DNA of 64,000 nt from Escherichia coli (GTDB lineage Bacteria > Pseudomonadota > Gammaproteobacteria > Enterobacterales > Enterobacteriaceae): NCBI RefSeq assembly GCF_022846255.1, contig NZ_AP025682.1; one strand, 5' to 3'. The first letter of the stretch is position 1, and each line of letters opens with the position of its first letter. This document shows positions 31,763-36,788 of this stretch, piece after piece. The notes beneath the pieces are model-generated. The model saw only the letters and a list, made by a program, of their open reading frames with translations. It made no database searches and had not been told where the DNA came from. The position numbers and the translations under genes were made by a program.

Positions 31763-33938
31763 CAAACCATGGGGAGCTACGCCTGATGAGTGGTTTCATT
31801 TTGACCTGGTATTGGGGAGAACTGATCATCTTCTGCCAGTTGTATGTAACCCCGGTGCGACCATATCCCCTGATAGTAAACTGAAAGCGTTGGGTAAGAC
31901 GCCGAGTCGCTATAACCGGGACCGCCAGGTCACCGGTATTGCTCAATGGACCGGGCATGTTGTTACTGAGCATGATTTTGCCCGCTGGTCGAATGAACCG
32001 GATTATGGCATCTGCGTGCGTACAGGCCATGGCTGGCTGGCGCTGGACTGTGATAGCGAAGATGAAGACATTCAGGCAGATATTCGTAAAACGCTTGTGC
32101 AACTTCTGGGTGAGTTGCCGCCGCGACGCTGGCGAGCAAACAGTAATAAGTGTCTGTATCTGCTGGCCGTTGATGGTGATTTCCGTAAGCGTATCCATCG
32201 CCTGGCGGGGGATATGGGCATTATCGAGTTGCTGGCGAACGGGCAGCAGTTCGTTGCCTGCGGTACGCACAGCAGCGGCGCGCGTATTGAATGGGACGGC
32301 GGTTTGCCGGATGAACCTCCGGCTATTACTGGTGAGCAGCTTGAAACGCTGTGGCAGCGCCTGGCTGAACAACTCCCTGTGTCGGTAACCACCGAAGCGG
32401 GCAACACGAAGATGCGCGACCGATCAGCATTCACGCCCGGCGCGACGGATGATACAGCTGAATATCTTGATGCCAATGGCTGGACGCTGCTGGATGGCGC
32501 AAATGGTGAACGATATATCCGCTGTCCGTTTGAAGACGGCCACAGTAGCGGGGGCGATCCAACAAGCACAGTTTATTTTCCTGCGGGAACCGCGGGCTTT
32601 GAGCAGGGGCATTTTAAATGCCTGCATGCCAGTTGTGCGCATCGTGATGACGGAGATTTCCTTAATGCCATCGGGATCCGCAACGACGATTTCGAAGATC
32701 TGACCAGCACCGAAGTGGCGGAACCTTTACCGCTGCCTGCTTTCGAGCGTGATAAATGGGGGCGTATCGAGGCAACCATCAGCAACGCAGCAAAAGCAGT
32801 AGTACGCCCTGATTTTGTGGACATCGATATTCGCTTTGACCAGTTCCGCGACGAAATCATGTTTGCCCCTGCAGGATCCGGACAATGGCGGGCATTCACC
32901 GATGCGGATTATGCGCGCCTGCGCATCACGATGGAAAAGCGGGGATTTAAACCTGTTGGTCGTGAACTTATTCGCGATGTGGTGTTACTTGCAGCCGATG
33001 AACAACCATTCGATTCAGCGATCACCTGGCTGAACGGACTGGAGTGGGATGGCGTGCCGCGCATCGAATGTTTCTACCATACGCACTTCGGTACAGCCGA
33101 CACGCCTTATACCCGTGCGGTGTCTATGTACATGTGGACCGCGTTGGCGGGGCGAGTACTGGAGCCAGGCATCAAAGCGGATATGGTGCCGATCCTCGTT
33201 GGTCCGCAGGGCTGCGGTAAGTCTTCCGGAGTAGAGGCACTGAGCCCTGATCCTGCGTTTTTTACTGAAATCTCTTTTGCCGAAAAAGACGATGATCTCG
33301 CTCGAAAAATGCGTGGTCGGCTGGTGGCAGAGATTGGTGAACTGCGCGGACTTAATACCAAAGAGCTGGAGTCAATCAAAGCGTTTGTGACGCGTACTCA
33401 CGAAAACTGGATCCCGAAATACCGGGAGTTCGCCACCCAGTTTCCTCGTCGCCTGGTGTTCGTTGGTACCACCAATGAGGACGAATTCCTTGCGGACAAG
33501 ACTGGTAACCGTCGCTGGCTCCCCGTGGAAGTGTCGAAAGTCGACGTGAAAGCGATAAAAAGAGATCTCCTTTTACTTTGGGCTGAGGCTCGTGAGGTGT
33601 TTCAGCGTCTGGGGGGTATCCAGTTCCGTGAGGCTGAACAACTGGCAGCGAGTGTCCATGAACAGTACACCATCAAGGATGCTTGGCTTGAAACGGTAGA
33701 GAAATGGCTCGACACGCCAGACCTGATGACTAATGAACTTCCGCGAAATTGCGAATTTTTACGCGCAAGTGATGTTTTGCGTGATGCGATTGGGCTAAAT
33801 CCTGACCGCATCGGAAAACGCGAAGAAATGCGAATTAGTAATGTTTTGCAAAATTGCGGGTATAAGCGTGCCCAAAGGCGAATTGGGGGGAAAAAATGCA
33901 AGGTTTGGGAACCGCTGGAACCACGCGGAACCACCTAA
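31752..33938 (+). CDS. primase / replicative NTPase (bifunctional primase-polymerase N-terminus, P4/VirE-type C-terminus)
   Basis: 728 aa; Walker A GPQGCGKSSG in the C-terminal half. Confidence 0.75.
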   Translation: MSDSKPWGATPDEWFHFDLVLGRTDHLLPVVCNPGATISPDSKLKALGKTPSRYNRDRQVTGIAQWTGHVVTEHDFARWSNEPDYGICVRTGHGWLALDCDSEDEDIQADIRKTLVQLLGELPPRRWRANSNKCLYLLAVDGDFRKRIHRLAGDMGIIELLANGQQFVACGTHSSGARIEWDGGLPDEPPAITGEQLETLWQRLAEQLPVSVTTEAGNTKMRDRSAFTPGATDDTAEYLDANGWTLLDGANGERYIRCPFEDGHSSGGDPTSTVYFPAGTAGFEQGHFKCLHASCAHRDDGDFLNAIGIRNDDFEDLTSTEVAEPLPLPAFERDKWGRIEATISNAAKAVVRPDFVDIDIRFDQFRDEIMFAPAGSGQWRAFTDADYARLRITMEKRGFKPVGRELIRDVVLLAADEQPFDSAITWLNGLEWDGVPRIECFYHTHFGTADTPYTRAVSMYMWTALAGRVLEPGIKADMVPILVGPQGCGKSSGVEALSPDPAFFTEISFAEKDDDLARKMRGRLVAEIGELRGLNTKELESIKAFVTRTHENWIPKYREFATQFPRRLVFVGTTNEDEFLADKTGNRRWLPVEVSKVDVKAIKRDLLLLWAEAREVFQRLGGIQFREAEQLAASVHEQYTIKDAWLETVEKWLDTPDLMTNELPRNCEFLRASDVLRDAIGLNPDRIGKREEMRISNVLQNCGYKRAQRRIGGKKCKVWEPLEPRGTT

Positions 33939-34086
33939 AAGAGAAGGTGGTTCCACCTTGCAGACCTTGTGGCAAGCGGGGCGGAACCACTGGAACCACC
34001 TTTCTACTAGAAACCCCATATATATATATAAGTCGATTGAGGGAAAGGTTAGGAAAAGGTGGTTCCAGGTGGGGGCAGGTGGTTCC
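33908..34086. repeat. iteron cluster with central (AT)6 tract; candidate replication origin
   Basis: GGAACC(A/G)C direct copies at 33908, 33917, 33927, 33983, 33992; inverted GGTGGTTCC at 33946, 34058, 34078; ATATATATATATA at 34018..34030. Confidence 0.55.
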
Positions 34087-34217
34087 ACTCCGCATTAGCA
34101 ACTTTTTGCATGTTGATACATGCAATATGCGAATCGGAACTGCGTTATCCACACCCACGGATAAACAGACGTGGTTCTCAGAAAATTTTTTCGTAGCAAA
34201 ACGTAGAGGTCAGAGCT

Positions 34218-34640
34218 ATGCGTAATATTCAACAGGTTTTAGAGCGCTGGGGTGGCTGGGCAGCGAGTGAAGGTGGTAGCGTCTACTTTCCTCCTGTTGC
34301 AGCCGGGTTTAAGAATCTGCTACCCGCGACGCAGTCTGGAAGGCTGAAATGCAGTGACAATGACGGTCTTATCATCAACTCCGCTATGAGCTGCCTGAAG
34401 AAAAAAGATCCGTATCTGTGCACGCTCCTTGAGTGGCATTACGTCCAGGCCATGCCCGTGCGGGCGATGGGTGAGAAGCTCGGCGTATCTCACACCCACG
34501 TTCTGAAGAGGCTTCAGGCGGCAGAGGGATTTATTGACGGTTGCTTAGCCATGCTGGATGTGGTGCTCGAAATGGATCAGTCGGTTCAGTCAAAGCCTCA
34601 GGCGATCAGGACTTTGCGTAGGAGCTGCTCGGCGGCATAA
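34218..34640 (+). CDS. late-gene antiterminator Q (QuuQ-like)
   Basis: 140 aa; MRNIQQVLERWGGWAA... resembles lambdoid Q as recalled; lies upstream of the lysis cassette. Confidence 0.75.
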   Translation: MRNIQQVLERWGGWAASEGGSVYFPPVAAGFKNLLPATQSGRLKCSDNDGLIINSAMSCLKKKDPYLCTLLEWHYVQAMPVRAMGEKLGVSHTHVLKRLQAAEGFIDGCLAMLDVVLEMDQSVQSKPQAIRTLRRSCSAA

Positions 34641-34671
34641 TATCCAGCAATCAATCACGTAAGGGAACCAG

Positions 34672-35013
34672 ATGGCTCTGATCAGCGTTCGCAACAGATT
34701 TGAAAGCTTCATGGAACAGAGGTACCCAGACCTGTCGTTGCAGGTCAAAGGTAATATTAGCGCATCAATGAAGGCTCAACTTGGCATCAGGATTGAACGA
34801 GAATTGTACAGTGAAGATGTTACTTACTGTGATTCAGCAGTTCAGTTGATGTGGACACTCTTTCAGGCAGGTGTTCTGGCCGAACGAAGAGCTACCAGCG
34901 TTACGCTTCCTGCGCTGAAGGCAAAGCCGGATAGCTTATACGATGCGGGTTATAACGAAGGTATTCAGGACTGTCGTAAACATCTGACGGCATCAGGCAT
35001 CAAGGTAAGATAA
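34672..35013 (+). CDS. hypothetical protein between Q and the lysis cassette
   Basis: 113-aa ORF followed by a terminator at 35080..35104. Confidence 0.45.
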   Translation: MALISVRNRFESFMEQRYPDLSLQVKGNISASMKAQLGIRIERELYSEDVTYCDSAVQLMWTLFQAGVLAERRATSVTLPALKAKPDSLYDAGYNEGIQDCRKHLTASGIKVR

Positions 35014-35079
35014 AAAATAGTTGTGGAATTCCAAAAAGCCGATTAGCCTGATATCCGTTGAAAACAGTTCATCACGAAG

Positions 35080-35104
35080 AGGCTTCCGCAAGGGGGCCTT
35101 TTTT
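35080..35104 (+). terminator. rho-independent terminator
   Basis: AGGCTTCC / GGGGGCCT stem with two G-U pairs and a GCAA tetraloop, then T5. Confidence 0.55.
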
Positions 35105-35334
35105 ATTGCCCCATTCTGGGGAAAAGTTAATAAAACAGGGCTTTCGCTGCGAAAAAACGCTATGCAGTTTTTGCCCTTTTTTATGCACCTTTTATTCACT
35201 CGAATTTCGTCATTCTGGACCACTTAAGTTGATTAAATAGGCCTTTCATCGCAAATCTATTGCGAGCGGGGATCGTGTGGTTCCTATAACGTACATTATG
35301 TTAAATCACCTTCTTTTTTAACAAATTTAACAAG

Positions 35335-35357
35335 GTTCGCTATGGCGAACTTTTTTT
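35335..35357 (+). terminator. rho-independent terminator upstream of the holin (candidate tR')
   Basis: Perfect GTTCGC / GCGAAC stem with loop TATG followed by T7; position analogous to the lambda 6S RNA terminator. Confidence 0.6.
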
Positions 35358-35458
35358 GTATTCAGGGCCCACCGAAGGACGGCTCATAACCCAATCCTAC
35401 GGGCGTATACGCAGGGCCCGCCTTTCAACAACACCCCGTAATGGCGGAGGTGGGAAGT

Positions 35459-35800
35459 ATGAAAATGCACAATGCTCCTCATTCCTGGCCTGACTTACTG
35501 GAACTCTTACAAAGTTGGTGGCGTGGAGATACGCCGTTGGGCGCAGTGGTTATGTCAATTGTTATGGCTGGTTTGCGCATTGCCTATTTTGGCGGTGGCG
35601 GCGGCTGGAAACGAAAAACGCTTGAGATTTTGCTCTGTGGTGCTCTGACGCTGACCTTTGCATCCGCTCTTGAGTATGTTGGATGGCCTAAATCGCTTTC
35701 TGTTGCCATTGGTGGCGGCGTTGGGCTGATCGGTGTCGATGCTATTCGTGGGGCTGCAATGCGAGTAATCGGTAACAAATTTGGTAGCTCGAAGGAGTAA
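35459..35800 (+). CDS. holin
   Basis: 113 aa from MKMHN... with dual-start M-K-M motif, GGAGG Shine-Dalgarno and hydrophobic segments; precedes the endolysin. Confidence 0.7.
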   Translation: MKMHNAPHSWPDLLELLQSWWRGDTPLGAVVMSIVMAGLRIAYFGGGGGWKRKTLEILLCGALTLTFASALEYVGWPKSLSVAIGGGVGLIGVDAIRGAAMRVIGNKFGSSKE

Positions 35801-35803
35801 TTT

Positions 35804-36280
35804 ATGCAGGAACTAAATCCCCAGCGTAAAGCTTTCCTGGATATGTTGGCCTGGTCAGAAGGAACGGATAACGGGCGACAACCGACACGTAATCACGGTT
35901 ATGACGTTATCGTCGGAGGTGAGTTGTTCACTGATTACTCCGATCACCCTCGCAAACTTGTCACGCTAAACCCGAAGCTTAAATCAACAGCTGCAGGCCG
36001 GTATCAACTTCTTTCACGCTGGTGGGATGCCTACCGCAAGCAGCTTGGCCTGAAAGATTTTTCGCCAGAAAGTCAGGACGCTGTGGCGCTGCAGCAGATT
36101 AAAGAGCGTGGCGCTTTACCGATGATTGACCGTGGCGATATTCGTCAGGCAATCGACCGTTGCAGCAATATCTGGGCGTCGTTACCTGGTGCAGGTTACG
36201 GTCAGTATGAACATAAAATCGGTGACCTGATTTCCAGGTTTAAAGATGCTGGTGGGGTGGTAAATGAAGCTGACTTATAA
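35804..36280 (+). CDS. endolysin (lambda R-like lytic transglycosylase)
   Basis: 158 aa; near-identical by eye to lambda R over NQRKAFLDMLAWSEGTDNGRQ...HGYDVIVGGELFTDYSDHPRKLVT. Confidence 0.9.
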   Translation: MQELNPQRKAFLDMLAWSEGTDNGRQPTRNHGYDVIVGGELFTDYSDHPRKLVTLNPKLKSTAAGRYQLLSRWWDAYRKQLGLKDFSPESQDAVALQQIKERGALPMIDRGDIRQAIDRCSNIWASLPGAGYGQYEHKIGDLISRFKDAGGVVNEADL

Positions 36281-36788
36281 GATTGTCATCGCGGCATTTT
36301 TCTTCTCTGTCTTTGGGGCGCTCGTCTGGTCTGCAAACCATTACCACAGCAAGTATCAGGCAGAAAAGTTGCGGGCTGATAAAGCGGAAGGTGAAGCTGA
36401 ATATCAAGGGAAAGTGATAGCTAATCAGGCATTAAACTTCAATCGTTTTAACCAGATAGCAGAAAACGCAAGCCGATTAAATTCTCTGGTCGACATCGGT
36501 CACGAGAAGACAGTCATCAAATACCGTGAGGTTCTGCTCCGTGAAAAGAACTGTGATTTCCCTGTTCCTGTTGATATTGCTGTCGGGTTGCTCAACTACG
36601 CGAACCGTTTACGTGCCAGCGCATTGCACGCCGATTCCGGGGACATTGACTCAGCCGGTGATCGTGCCACTACCACCAGAACGTTGACATATTGCCAGGC
36701 TGTTCTGTGGATTAACCCACTGTTGGCAGCCATCGAGAAGGCGAATAACCAGTTGGCTGGTGTCCGACAAATAGAACAGTCCCGGTAA
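36264..36788 (+). CDS. i-spanin (Rz-like)
   Basis: 174 aa; N-terminal membrane helix and coiled-coil; directly follows the endolysin. Confidence 0.75.
   Translation: MKLTYKIVIAAFFFSVFGALVWSANHYHSKYQAEKLRADKAEGEAEYQGKVIANQALNFNRFNQIAENASRLNSLVDIGHEKTVIKYREVLLREKNCDFPVPVDIAVGLLNYANRLRASALHADSGDIDSAGDRATTTRTLTYCQAVLWINPLLAAIEKANNQLAGVRQIEQSR
36541..36687 (+). CDS. o-spanin (Rz1-like lipoprotein) embedded in Rz in the +1 frame
   Basis: 48 codons, GTG start with GAGG Shine-Dalgarno; MKRTVISLFLLILLSGC lipobox followed by a proline-rich mature region; below the ORF-track cutoff. Confidence 0.6.
   Translation: MKRTVISLFLLILLSGCSTTRTVYVPAHCTPIPGTLTQPVIVPLPPER

What the first reader, a model, noticed from the sequence alone, without database searches (positions are those of the whole stretch)
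34672..35104. Terminator-capped unknown gene between Q and the lysis cassette
A 113-aa ORF with no recognisable features sits directly after Q and ends in a GCAA-tetraloop terminator (35080..35104), upstream of a second terminator (35335..35357) and the holin. The Q-to-S interval is a classic cargo site in lambdoid phages (for example where Shiga toxin genes sit), so this may be a conversion or accessory gene rather than part of the lysis programme.
Basis: inference. Interest (0 to 1): 0.45.

Follow-up and report, generated by a model that had tools for sequence, protein, structure and literature searches.

The report
Small accessory gene locked beside Q
The 113-codon gene is a real, conserved but dispensable phage gene of unknown function that always sits just after the late-gene switch protein Q, and the hairpin "capping" it is most likely the regulated terminator of the phage's late promoter, not a private terminator of a cargo gene.

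Summary
ORF 34672-35013 (113 aa) lies 31 nt after a Q21-family antiterminator gene. A GCAA-loop terminator (T1, 35076-35105) and a second terminator (T2, 35332-35360) follow, then a lambda-type holin.

The gene is real: dN/dS is 0.07-0.12 and homologs reach 31-50% identity in other Enterobacterales. It does have recognisable features: Pfam PF26207 (phiTE_015 family) and PHROG 343, both of unknown function.

It is accessory. Among complete E. coli genomes, 61 carry it intact, 32 keep only a 57-bp remnant of a 286-bp deletion, and prophages with other Q alleles lack it.

It is probably not stx-like cargo. T1 is present in relatives without the gene. The 66 bp between the stop codon and T1 are almost invariant. 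They hold a promoter-like element (TTGTGG-17-TAGCCT) whose palindrome co-varies with the Q helix-turn-helix. I read this as pR'/QBE, with T1 as tR', so the gene is the last early gene, made with Q.

In all 38 IMG/VR loci and all 10 other sequence contexts examined, homologs lie downstream of a Q gene of one of four types. No fold or sequence match gives a function. Interest is modest.

The parts
34218..34640 (+). Antiterminator Q gene (140 aa, Q21 family), with helix-turn-helix GEKLGVSHTHVLKRLQAAEGF
   Evidence: PF06530 E 5e-42 and PHROG 79. The HTH is invariant in window, L017, L007 and L006 but differs in the IAI1 and RMDEC465 alleles.
34641..34671 (+). 31-nt Q-ORF spacer with a Shine-Dalgarno (AAGGGA); no hairpin and no scan-level promoter
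   Evidence: Sequence and scan. The SD-proximal part is conserved and the distal part variable in L017/L019.
34672..35013 (+). ORF113: soluble 12.7-kDa protein, PF26207 (phiTE_015 family) / PHROG 343
   Evidence: dN/dS is 0.07-0.12. pI 8.6, no hydrophobic segment. The AF2 model has pLDDT 76 and three long helices.
34675..34960 (.). 286-bp segment deleted in 611R5-type phages and 32 E. coli genomes; the deletion is frame-shifting and leaves the ATG plus the last 57 nt
35014..35079 (+). Ultra-conserved 66-nt spacer, the candidate late promoter pR' with its Q-binding element. -35 TTGTGG at 35021-35026; palindrome TGGAATTCCA at 35024-35033; A tract to 35037; -10-like TAGCCT at 35044-35049; second hexamer TGaTATCCG at 35049-35057.
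   Evidence: Only 1-2 differences in 66 nt against L017/L019, where 61% of synonymous sites differ. The exact 15-mer TTGTGGAATTCCAAA follows the ORF in L006, L007 and L009 (ORF identity to the window protein 44-51%) and in 26 IMG/VR loci. Other Q alleles have a different palindrome at the equivalent place.
35076..35105 (+). T1: intrinsic terminator with GCAA tetraloop; proposed tR' (Q-regulated), also the end of the early operon
   Evidence: Fold. The structure is kept with different stem sequences in six relatives with or without the ORF. The mosaic boundary lies in its T run.
35105..35331 (.). Late-leader block that is near-identical across Q alleles. It contains hairpin 35137-35183, flanked by A and T runs, and a minus-strand promoter-like TTGTTA-18-CATAAT (35324..35295).
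35332..35360 (+). T2: second intrinsic terminator in the late leader
   Evidence: It is absent in L017/L019, where a cargo gene starts at that place.
35441..35800 (+). Lambda-family holin (RefSeq start 35459, MKM dual-start motif), the first gene of the lysis cassette
   Evidence: PF05106 and PHROG 126; annotation in L002.

Best explanation
ORF113 is a genuine, non-essential accessory gene of a SEN34-like temperate myovirus integrated in E. coli. It belongs to the small Enterobacterales phage family PF26207 / PHROG 343.

In this phage it is the last gene of the early rightward operon (cro, VapE primase, Q, ORF113). It is translated from its own ribosome-binding site 31 nt after Q, so it is made together with Q during lytic growth, at the early-to-late switch, and not from the repressed prophage (inferred).

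The 66 bp between its stop codon and the hairpin are the late promoter region. They hold a weak sigma-70 promoter (TTGTGG-17-TAGCCT) whose -35/spacer carries the palindrome TGGAATTCCA, the likely binding element of this Q allele. Hairpin T1 is therefore the terminator that Q-modified RNA polymerase must read through (tR'). Without Q the promoter would give only a roughly 45-50-nt RNA. T2 is a second barrier in the same leader.

Because the gene is sandwiched between Q and Q's own DNA site, which must be inherited together, it travels with the Q module. It can be lost only by internal deletion, as in the 286-bp deletion variants.

The product is a soluble 12.7-kDa protein with three long helices. 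Its invariant residues are E11, Q58, W61, D91, G93 and N95. It most likely acts by binding a host or phage macromolecule or small ligand during late lytic development. Which partner it binds is not known.

Shown: the gene is real, it is under purifying selection, it is dispensable in genomes, it is strictly adjacent to Q, the spacer and T1 are conserved, and the palindrome co-varies with the Q HTH.

Inferred: the promoter/QBE assignment, T1 as tR', the timing of expression, and a binding mode of action.
For: Gene reality:
- dN/dS 0.07-0.12 at dS 0.6-1.3.
- Homologs at 31-51% identity in at least 8 genera.

Dispensability:
- 61 E. coli genomes have the intact gene and 32 have only the 3' remnant.
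- The 286-bp out-of-frame deletion occurs in four deposited phage genomes.
- Prophages with other Q alleles have Q followed directly by T1.

Operon position:
- The gap to Q is 31 nt and holds only a Shine-Dalgarno.
- In L007 the Q stop overlaps the ORF start.
- No plus-strand promoter appears at scan thresholds.

pR'/QBE:
- The spacer 35014-35079 differs at 1-2 of 66 positions from L017/L019, against 61% of synonymous sites (P about 5e-24).
- The exact 15-mer TTGTGGAATTCCAAA, with a TAnnCT hexamer (17-bp spacing in five of the six aligned loci, 18 bp in L009), follows the ORF in Rahnella, Kluyvera and other loci whose ORF is only 44-51% identical to the window protein.
- It is present in all 26 IMG/VR loci with the window-type Q.
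- Those Q proteins share an invariant HTH. The IAI1 and RMDEC465 Q alleles have other HTH sequences and other palindromes (TGCG-cta-CGCA, TGTGCGCACA) in the same position relative to an A tract, -10-like hexamers and T1.

T1 as regulated terminator:
- The hairpin is kept by different or compensatory stems in all relatives.
- Everything from its T run to the holin is about 100% identical among phages whose Q proteins are 28-45% identical, so Q specificity must lie upstream of it.
- Insertions (tRNA-Gly, gene blocks, IS66) lie after it.
- In phage 21 the QBE lies between -35 and -10 (PMC6606751).
- pR' promoters are constitutively active and terminated just downstream (PMC7547250 abstract).

Protein:
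- No TM segment or signal peptide.
- Model pLDDT 76.
Against: - No transcription data were available; the promoter, start site and antitermination are all inferred.
- The proposed -35 and -10 are weak (3/6 each) and were not picked up by the consensus scan.
- No convincing sigma-dependent pause element (TAnnnT) is seen in the initial transcribed region.
- The site is a palindrome, whereas phage 21 QBE is a direct repeat.
- A weak TTGCGT-16-CATAAT overlapping the Q stop codon (TTTGCA-17-CATAAT in L017) could drive the ORF independently.
- In other lineages (Xenorhabdus, Proteus, Providencia) the homolog lies after a terminator that follows Q, so the family is not tied to the early operon.
Confidence: 0.55

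Rival explanations
1. Lysogenic-conversion or 'moron' cargo. ORF113 would be an independently expressed cassette with its own promoter (TTGCGT-16-CATAAT over the Q stop codon) and its own terminator T1. It would be made in the lysogen and benefit the host, for example by superinfection exclusion or a fitness trait.
For: - Presence/absence polymorphism among near-identical prophages.
- GC is lower than in Q (46.8% against 54.1%).
- A promoter-like TTTGCA-17-CATAAT is scored in L017 at the Q stop.
- Every homolog examined is followed by an intrinsic terminator.
- The Q-to-lysis interval is a known cargo site (PMC6266700).
Against: - The window sequence fails the promoter scan.
- The putative promoter is not conserved in L006/L007, and its -10 is forced by the Q stop codon.
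- T1 exists without the gene.
- GC equals that of the neighbouring lysis genes.
- The protein is cytoplasmic with no toxin, membrane or secretion features.
- The family is never seen away from a Q gene. This fits module hitch-hiking or a lytic role better than free-moving cargo.
Confidence: 0.12
2. A component or modulator of the late switch or of lysis timing. PF26207 proteins would work with the transcription machinery that Q acts on (RNA polymerase exit channel, NusA, sigma-70), or would tune terminator read-through or the onset of lysis. That would explain why they always sit beside Q whatever its family.
For: - Q is upstream in 38 of 38 IMG/VR loci and in all 10 other sequence contexts examined (the window and nine fetched from other databases). 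The Q genes are of four types: PF06530, DUF1133-like, PF03589 and PF06323.
- The homolog is either the last gene before pR' or the first gene after tR', in both cases made just as late transcription starts.
- Strong purifying selection.
Against: - Frequent loss by deletion, and complete absence from sister prophages with other Q alleles that keep identical late and lysis regions.
- The Q families are structurally unrelated (bioRxiv 10.1101/651190), so a direct Q partner is unlikely.
- A fused Q-linker-ORF113 AlphaFold model gave no confident packing (pLDDT 50, pTM 0.42). With only 5 sequences this is uninformative rather than negative.
- Sandwiching between Q and its DNA site explains the class I linkage without any functional tie.
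Confidence: 0.15
3. Different architecture. T1 is only the terminator of the early operon, and the late promoter lies in the conserved block between T1 and T2 (for example TTGCGA-19-TATAAC at 35267-35297), with T2 as tR'. The conserved 66-nt spacer would then be something else, such as a 3'-UTR element or an operator.
For: - Two terminators with about 230 nt between them recur in L007.
- The patch GATCGYGTGGTKCCKATAACGTACATTATGTTAAAT is conserved in L017/L019.
- -10-like hexamers follow it.
Against: - The block is essentially identical in phages whose Q proteins are 28-45% identical and have different recognition helices, which does not fit allele-specific Q binding.
- The 19-bp spacing is poor, and the -10 is GATAAC in L017/L019.
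- No plus-strand promoter was scored there.
- The conserved hexamers fit a minus-strand promoter better.
- In L007 the equivalent interval holds a tRNA gene.
Confidence: 0.2
4. Anti-defence or host-takeover factor. It would be a small sponge- or inhibitor-type protein made during lytic growth that neutralises a host immune or stress pathway, and would be dispensable on hosts lacking that pathway.
For: - Small, soluble and helical, with an invariant polar/aromatic residue set.
- Patchy presence combined with strong purifying selection.
- Weak structural resemblance to uncharacterised small proteins of virulent Salmonella and Pseudomonas phages and to Ead/Ea22-like proteins.
- The remote family namesake phiTE_015 is in a virulent phage.
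Against: - No match to any PADLOC model. That library covers defence systems, not anti-defence proteins.
- No match to any solved structure.
- No link to a particular host system could be tested.
- This rival is compatible with, and a special case of, the best explanation.
Confidence: 0.25

Closest known systems
Pfam PF26207 (Phage_phiTE_015) / PGAP 'phiTE_015 family protein' / PHROG 343
   Same: The 99%-identical cluster representative carries PF26207. RefSeq names the identical gene 'phiTE_015 family protein'. PHROG 343 matches residues 5-112 at E 3e-18. The motifs are collinear with phiTE_015 itself (R..FE, EY, W..W, v.LP.K, I.DC..L..G).
   Different: The Enterobacterales prophage subgroup has its own signature (VQLMW..F.AG and KPD.FYDAGYNEGI.DC.K) and a fixed place beside Q. 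phiTE_015 lies in the early region of a virulent Vequintavirinae phage. The direct profile comparison is weak (E 0.008, probability 5%). No member has a known function.
Q-dependent late regulatory cassette of lambdoid phages (phage 21 Q21: Q gene, pR' with QBE, sigma-dependent pause, tR')
   Same: Q belongs to the Q21 family, PF06530. A promoter-like element with an allele-specific protein site in the -35/spacer region is followed within about 30 nt by an intrinsic terminator and then the lysis genes. As in Stx phages, it would yield a short terminated RNA (PMC7547250).
   Different: A protein-coding gene is interposed between Q and the proposed pR'. In lambda (my recollection, not checked here) and in this prophage's ORF-less sister alleles, the late promoter follows or overlaps the end of Q with no gene between. 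The candidate site is a 10-bp palindrome rather than the TGAGCA direct repeat of phage 21. No clear pause element is visible. The predicted terminated RNA is very short. None of this has been tested experimentally.
Cargo ('moron') genes of the Q-to-S interval, such as stx in 933W-like phages
   Same: It lies between Q and the holin, is optional among related prophages, and is followed by a terminator.
   Different: stx and its tRNAs lie downstream of pR'-tR' and depend on Q read-through (PMC6266700). ORF113 lies upstream of the proposed pR'/tR'. It shows no toxin, membrane or secretion feature and has no promoter of its own at scan level. Insertions in its relatives use the site after T1.
Ead/Ea22-like and other small helical 'FE..W' proteins of phage early regions
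   Same: Weak Foldseek similarity (E 1e-4 to 0.1, TM about 0.4) to uncharacterised proteins of Salmonella phages Seszw_1 and VSt472 and to an Ead/Ea22-like protein. They share the N-terminal R..FE...W pattern.
   Different: The similarity is below what establishes homology. Those proteins are also of unknown function and are not tied to Q.

Membership tests
PF26207 / phiTE_015 family | Significant match to the family HMM | tested here: met
   PF26207.1 is precomputed for clusters 77-99% identical to the ORF, and is listed unmarked (E<=1e-5) for the L017/L019 orthologs. RefSeq uses the product name. The local Pfam and NCBIfam copies gave no hit, presumably because the model is newer than those copies.
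PF26207 / phiTE_015 family | Detectable homology to the name-giving protein phiTE_015 | tested here: inconclusive
   hhalign of alignment A5 against phiTE_015 gave E 0.008, probability 5%, 79 collinear columns with shared motifs.
PHROG 343 | Profile match over most of the protein | tested here: met
   E 3.2e-18 over residues 5-112; 22 of 23 family members match. The co-hit PHROG 15831 ('head closure') covers only half of that profile, and I treat its label as unreliable.
Q21-type Q-dependent late cassette | Q protein of family PF06530 | tested here: met
   E 5e-42, full-length match.
Q21-type Q-dependent late cassette | Promoter carrying an allele-specific Q-binding element between -35 and -10 | tested here: inconclusive
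   TTGTGG-17-TAGCCT with palindrome TGGAATTCCA. It co-varies with the Q HTH across three alleles and is invariant where the HTH is invariant. However, the hexamers are weak, the site is not a direct repeat, and no binding was tested.
Q21-type Q-dependent late cassette | Sigma-dependent pause element (-10-like) in the initial transcribed region | tested here: inconclusive
   The hexamers TATCCG and TTGAAA follow the -10. RMDEC465 has TAGCAT/TAGAAT. None in the window has both A2 and T6.
Q21-type Q-dependent late cassette | Intrinsic terminator between promoter and late genes | tested here: met
   T1 lies 27 nt after the -10-like hexamer and is structurally conserved in all relatives. T2 lies further downstream.
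Q21-type Q-dependent late cassette | Q-dependent read-through of the terminator | not testable with these tools
   Needs a reporter assay or in vitro transcription.
Moron / lysogenic-conversion cassette | Own promoter active in the lysogen | tested here: not met
   No plus-strand promoter at scan thresholds in 33800-36000. The weak TTGCGT-16-CATAAT at the Q stop is not conserved in L006/L007. Expression itself was not measurable.
Moron / lysogenic-conversion cassette | Gene-specific terminator | tested here: not met
   T1 is present at the same place in IAI1-, RMDEC465- and CREC-544-type prophages that lack the gene.
Moron / lysogenic-conversion cassette | Presence/absence polymorphism among otherwise similar phages | tested here: met
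   61 genomes intact, 32 with the remnant only, and the rest of the 146 related loci without it.
Moron / lysogenic-conversion cassette | Deviant base composition | tested here: inconclusive
   GC is 46.8% against 54.1% for Q, but 48-51% for the adjacent lysis genes and 49.8% for the window.
Late-operon cargo at the stx-like site | Location downstream of pR' and tR' | tested here: not met
   In the window the ORF is upstream of T1 and of the conserved promoter-like element. Class II relatives (L013, L014, L045, L047, L049) do have the homolog after a terminator that follows Q.

The most novel reading that the evidence does not exclude
PF26207 proteins are an unrecognised, Q-family-independent part of the late-gene switch of temperate Enterobacterales phages. 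For example, they could act on RNA polymerase, NusA or sigma-70, or on terminator read-through or lysis timing. This would explain why they are found only next to Q genes of four different types, always bracketed by the late-operon terminators.
Probability: 0.12. Interest if true: 0.7.

Novelty: new member of a known kind. Interest (0 to 1): 0.33.

Why it matters
If the reading is right, three things follow.

1. It corrects the annotation logic for this widespread E. coli prophage, present in about 2.7% of complete genomes. The hairpin after the gene is the regulated late terminator, and the real cargo site is downstream of it.

2. It offers a compact, testable set of three natural Q alleles, each with a matching palindrome, for studying how small Q21-family proteins choose their DNA site.

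3. It flags a small protein family whose only known property is strict adjacency to antiterminator genes. That makes it a cheap candidate for a knock-out study of late-switch or host-interaction functions.

If it proves to be ordinary accessory baggage, the value is mainly better annotation.

Tried and rejected
Searches that gave no functional lead:
- Sequence libraries: local Pfam, NCBIfam and PADLOC gave nothing for the ORF.
- PDB sequence search with the single protein and with the profile gave nothing.
- BFVD gave only uncharacterised proteins.
- The afdb50 library was not available.
- Literature: PF26207 and phiTE_015 are not mentioned in the held papers.
- Rfam: only sub-threshold hits that reflect the T1 hairpin.

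Exploratory test:
- The fused Q-(GGGGS)6-ORF113 AlphaFold run with 5 paired sequences gave pLDDT 50 and pTM 0.42. It is uninformative.

Candidate promoters considered and set aside:
- TTGCGA-19-TATAAC between T1 and T2. That block does not change with the Q allele, and its -10 degrades in L017/L019.
- TTGCGT-16-CATAAT over the Q stop codon. It is not conserved in L006/L007, which share the Q HTH.

Other points:
- In one search, MAFFT aligned the window's post-ORF spacer with the 3' ends of other Q genes. I first read this as misalignment, then as a shared layout (palindrome, A tract, two TA-hexamers, hairpin). It is analogy, not proven homology.
- The minus-strand ORF of 38 aa annotated in phage 611R5 (window 35072-35188) runs through two hairpins and is rejected as a gene.
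- A candidate leftward sRNA (35288 to about 35130) folds no better than shuffles (z -1.7) and is left as a lead.
Full report
**1. What is in the sequence**

The ORF runs from ATG 34672 to TAA 35013 and encodes 113 aa. AAGGGA lies 7 nt before the ATG.

The gene before it (34218-34640) is a full-length member of the Q21 antiterminator family, PF06530, at E 5e-42. The gap between the two genes is 31 nt and holds nothing but the ribosome-binding site.

After the ORF come:
- 66 nt of spacer;
- hairpin T1, with core stem 35080-35087/35092-35099, a GCAA loop and a T run (-17.1 kcal/mol, z -2.3);
- a 227-nt block;
- hairpin T2, 35332-35353 plus T run;
- a lambda-family holin, a GH24 endolysin, Rz/Rz1 and terminase.

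**2. Context**

The window is an E. coli prophage. The 1.4-kb Q-to-holin stretch is found in 146 of 5426 complete E. coli genomes, always once and always on the chromosome.

The prophage has a cI/cro-like switch, a VapE primase, its own family-A DNA polymerase module and myovirus structural genes. A published table lists a 611R5-type relative as closest to Salmonella phage SEN34 (PMC12945033).

**3. The ORF is a real gene in a catalogued family**

Against orthologs in two other contigs (L017 from Escherichia sp., and L019; 84% and 81% protein identity), dS is 0.6-1.3 and dN/dS is 0.07-0.12. This is similar to Q itself, at 0.03-0.08.

Searches of 5.8 and 1.8 billion proteins found only about 30 clusters. 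All are from Enterobacterales: Escherichia, Rahnella, Yersinia, Kluyvera, Providencia, Proteus, Xenorhabdus and Limnobaculum.

The conserved signature is R..FE, VQLMW..F.AG and LP..K.KPD.FYDAGYNEGI.DC.K.

The database's precomputed Pfam label is PF26207, Phage_phiTE_015. Newer RefSeq annotations call the identical gene 'phiTE_015 family protein'. PHROG 343 (unknown function) matches at E 3e-18. So 'no recognisable features' is not accurate, but no member has a known function.

phiTE_015 itself lies in a virulent Pectobacterium phage. It shares the motifs collinearly, but the profile comparison is weak.

**4. The gene is dispensable**

Four deposited E. coli phage genomes and 32 E. coli chromosomes carry a 286-bp out-of-frame deletion. 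It leaves the ATG and the last 57 nt of the ORF, with Q, the spacer and T1 intact.

Sixty-one genomes have the gene intact. One further genome has a 341-bp, apparently frameshifted copy.

Sister prophages with other Q alleles have no trace of it; these are IAI1, RMDEC465 and CREC-544, whose Q proteins are 28-45% identical to the window's. In them, Q is followed within 22-48 nt by a T1-like hairpin.

**5. T1 is not the gene's private terminator**

In the five-way alignment, everything from the T run of T1 to the holin start is essentially identical. Everything upstream changes with the Q allele.

T1 itself is kept as a structure with different stems:
- AGGCTTCC/GGGGGCCT in the window;
- AGGCTCTC/GAGGGCCT in L017;
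- AGCTCCAA/TTGGGGCT in IAI1;
- GGCTCCG/CGGAGCC in CREC-544.

The mosaic joint therefore lies in the T run of T1.

**6. Where the late promoter most likely is**

Q proteins recognise a DNA element in their own late promoter. In phage 21 it lies between -35 and -10 (PMC6606751; bioRxiv 10.1101/651190). The element must therefore change with the Q allele, which places it upstream of the T1 T run.

*Evidence from conservation.* In the window lineage, the 66-nt spacer differs from L017/L019 at only 1-2 positions, while 61% of synonymous sites in the adjacent ORF differ. The exact 15-mer TTGTGGAATTCCAAA begins 5-9 nt after the stop codon of the ORF in Rahnella (L006) and an unidentified host (L007), and lies at the end of the fused ORF called in Kluyvera (L009). 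In these the encoded protein is only 44-51% identical to the window protein. It is also present in all 26 IMG/VR loci that have the window-type Q.

*The promoter-like element.* TTGTGG is followed at 17 bp by TAGCCT, TATTCT or TAATCT in five of the six aligned loci; the Kluyvera locus L009 has an 18-bp spacing. Then comes CTGnTA, and the hairpin follows 27-42 nt later.

*Co-variation with Q.* The Q proteins of the window, L017, L007 and L006 share an invariant helix-turn-helix (KLGxSHTxVLKRLQAAEGF). IAI1 and RMDEC465 have different recognition helices. They carry different palindromes at the equivalent place, inside the 3' end of their Q genes. RMDEC465 has TTG-TGTGCGCACA-AAAA, where the window has TTG-TGGAATTCCA-AAAA. 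IAI1 has TGCG-cta-CGCA. In each case an A tract, two TA-hexamers and the hairpin follow.

*Reading.* I read this as pR' with an allele-specific Q-binding palindrome, and T1 as tR'. The predicted unextended transcript is about 45-50 nt. It would be analogous to lambda 6S RNA (my own recollection, not checked here) and to the StxS RNA of Stx phages (PMC7547250).

*Weak points.* The hexamers are poor and the scan did not report them. No clear sigma-dependent pause element is visible. The phage 21 site is a direct repeat, not a palindrome.

*Alternative promoters.* A promoter between T1 and T2 is disfavoured because that block ignores the Q allele. A promoter over the Q stop codon is disfavoured because it is not conserved where the Q HTH is.

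**7. Consequence for the gene**

ORF113 is upstream of the regulated terminator and of the proposed late promoter. It is joined to Q with no signal in between; in L007 the Q stop even overlaps its start.

It is therefore best read as the last gene of the early operon, made together with Q. It is not in the stx position. In relatives, the things that have been inserted all lie after T1:
- a tRNA-Gly in L007;
- a three-gene block with a methyltransferase in L017/L019;
- an IS66-family element in L040.

**8. A family locked to Q**

The nine additional sequence contexts fetched from other databases all had a Q gene upstream. So did all 38 IMG/VR loci, on the same strand. Two layouts occur.

- **Class I:** window-type Q, a 31-47-nt gap, the ORF, the TTGTGGAATTCCAAA element, then T1.
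- **Class II:** a DUF1133-like Q, a lambda-type Q (PF03589) or another Q21-family Q, followed by a 126-232-nt gap that holds a terminator. In L013 and L014 a good promoter precedes that terminator: TTGACT-16-TAATAT (L013) or TTGACT-16-TATAGT (L014), then TATATGCT. Then come the ORF and a second terminator.

Three further loci have one to three genes between Q and the ORF (L008, which has a Q82-type Q, and L051 and L058).

Either way the protein would appear as late transcription begins, and the ORF is always followed by an intrinsic terminator.

For class I there is a simple non-functional explanation of the linkage. A gene lying between Q and Q's own DNA site cannot be separated from them by recombination without destroying the switch, so it hitch-hikes and can be lost only by internal deletion. 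That is what is seen. Class II and the strong purifying selection show that the family is nevertheless kept for some benefit.

**9. Function**

The protein is 12.7 kDa with pI 8.6 and no hydrophobic segment.

The AlphaFold model built on 23 sequences has mean pLDDT 76. It shows three long helices (6-17, 55-74, 89-107), short strands and a disordered loop at 28-45. The invariant residues are F10, E11, Q58, W61, G67, L79, P80, P86, D91, G93 and N95.

An exploratory fused Q-linker-ORF113 model was uninformative.

My best guess is a soluble binding protein acting on a host or phage partner during late lytic growth. Anti-defence or host-takeover is the most likely subclass, and a role in the late switch or lysis timing is less likely. 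This step is inference only.

**10. Verdict**

It is wrong on the cargo-site analogy and on the meaning of the terminator.

The gene is a new member of a catalogued family of unknown function. The mildly novel points are two: a gene interposed between Q and its promoter with an allele-matched palindrome, and the strict adjacency of the family to Q genes of four types. Interest is modest.

Noticed in passing
window 33906-34093: At least eight copies of GGAACCAC/GTGGTTCC in both orientations flank an alternating AT tract (TATATATATA, 34019-34030). The array lies directly after the VapE primase gene and before Q. It is probably an iteron-type replication origin.
   Followed up: partly
window 35105-35331: This block between T1 and T2 is about 100% identical in prophages with very different Q alleles. 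It holds a minus-strand promoter-like TTGTTA-18-CATAAT (35324..35295) whose hexamers are invariant while the spacer varies in L017/L019. That promoter faces hairpin 35137-35183, which has an A run on one side and a T run on the other. This could be a roughly 150-nt leftward sRNA antisense to the late leader. The fold z is only -1.7 and there is no Rfam hit.
   Followed up: partly
window 35441-35800 and 36264-36788: The holin has a lambda-S-like Met-Lys-Met dual start at 35459, with a further in-frame ATG at 35441. An Rz1-like lipoprotein ORF (36526-36687, ...LLSGCSTT) is embedded in the +1 frame of Rz.
   Followed up: no
L007 4425-4500; L017/L019 3669-5676; L040 4697-7285: The insertion-tolerant site of this phage group lies downstream of T1. 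It holds a tRNA-Gly(UCC) in L007, a three-gene block (MptE-like, unknown, methyltransferase) in L017/L019, and an IS66-family element (TnpA/TnpB/TnpC) in L040.
   Followed up: partly
L009 4001-4432 (Kluyvera sichuanensis): A 143-aa ORF fuses the C-terminal HTH part of a Q protein in frame to an ORF113 homolog. The TTGTGGAATTCCAAA element follows, and an integrase and a RES-domain gene are nearby. This looks like a decayed remnant of the Q-ORF-pR' module.
   Followed up: no
L013 3862-3979 and L014 3882-3987: The Xenorhabdus and Proteus-type prophages show a textbook-looking late cassette after a DUF1133-type Q: TTGACT-16-TAATAT (L013) or TTGACT-16-TATAGT (L014), a -10-like TATATGCT in the initial transcribed region, and a terminator about 50-70 nt downstream. 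The ORF113 homolog and another terminator follow.
   Followed up: partly
PHROG 15831 (hit to ORF113 residues 60-112): This PHROG is labelled 'head closure', but it matches only through the conserved C-terminal half of the ORF113 family (22 of 23 members). The label is probably a mis-transfer or reflects a chimeric member.
   Followed up: no
window 34675-34960 versus L001: The 286-bp deletion has the same end points in two sequence lineages of the remnant (98% and 89.5% identical to the window). This suggests either one old event spread by recombination or a recurrent deletion at a GG microhomology.
   Followed up: no
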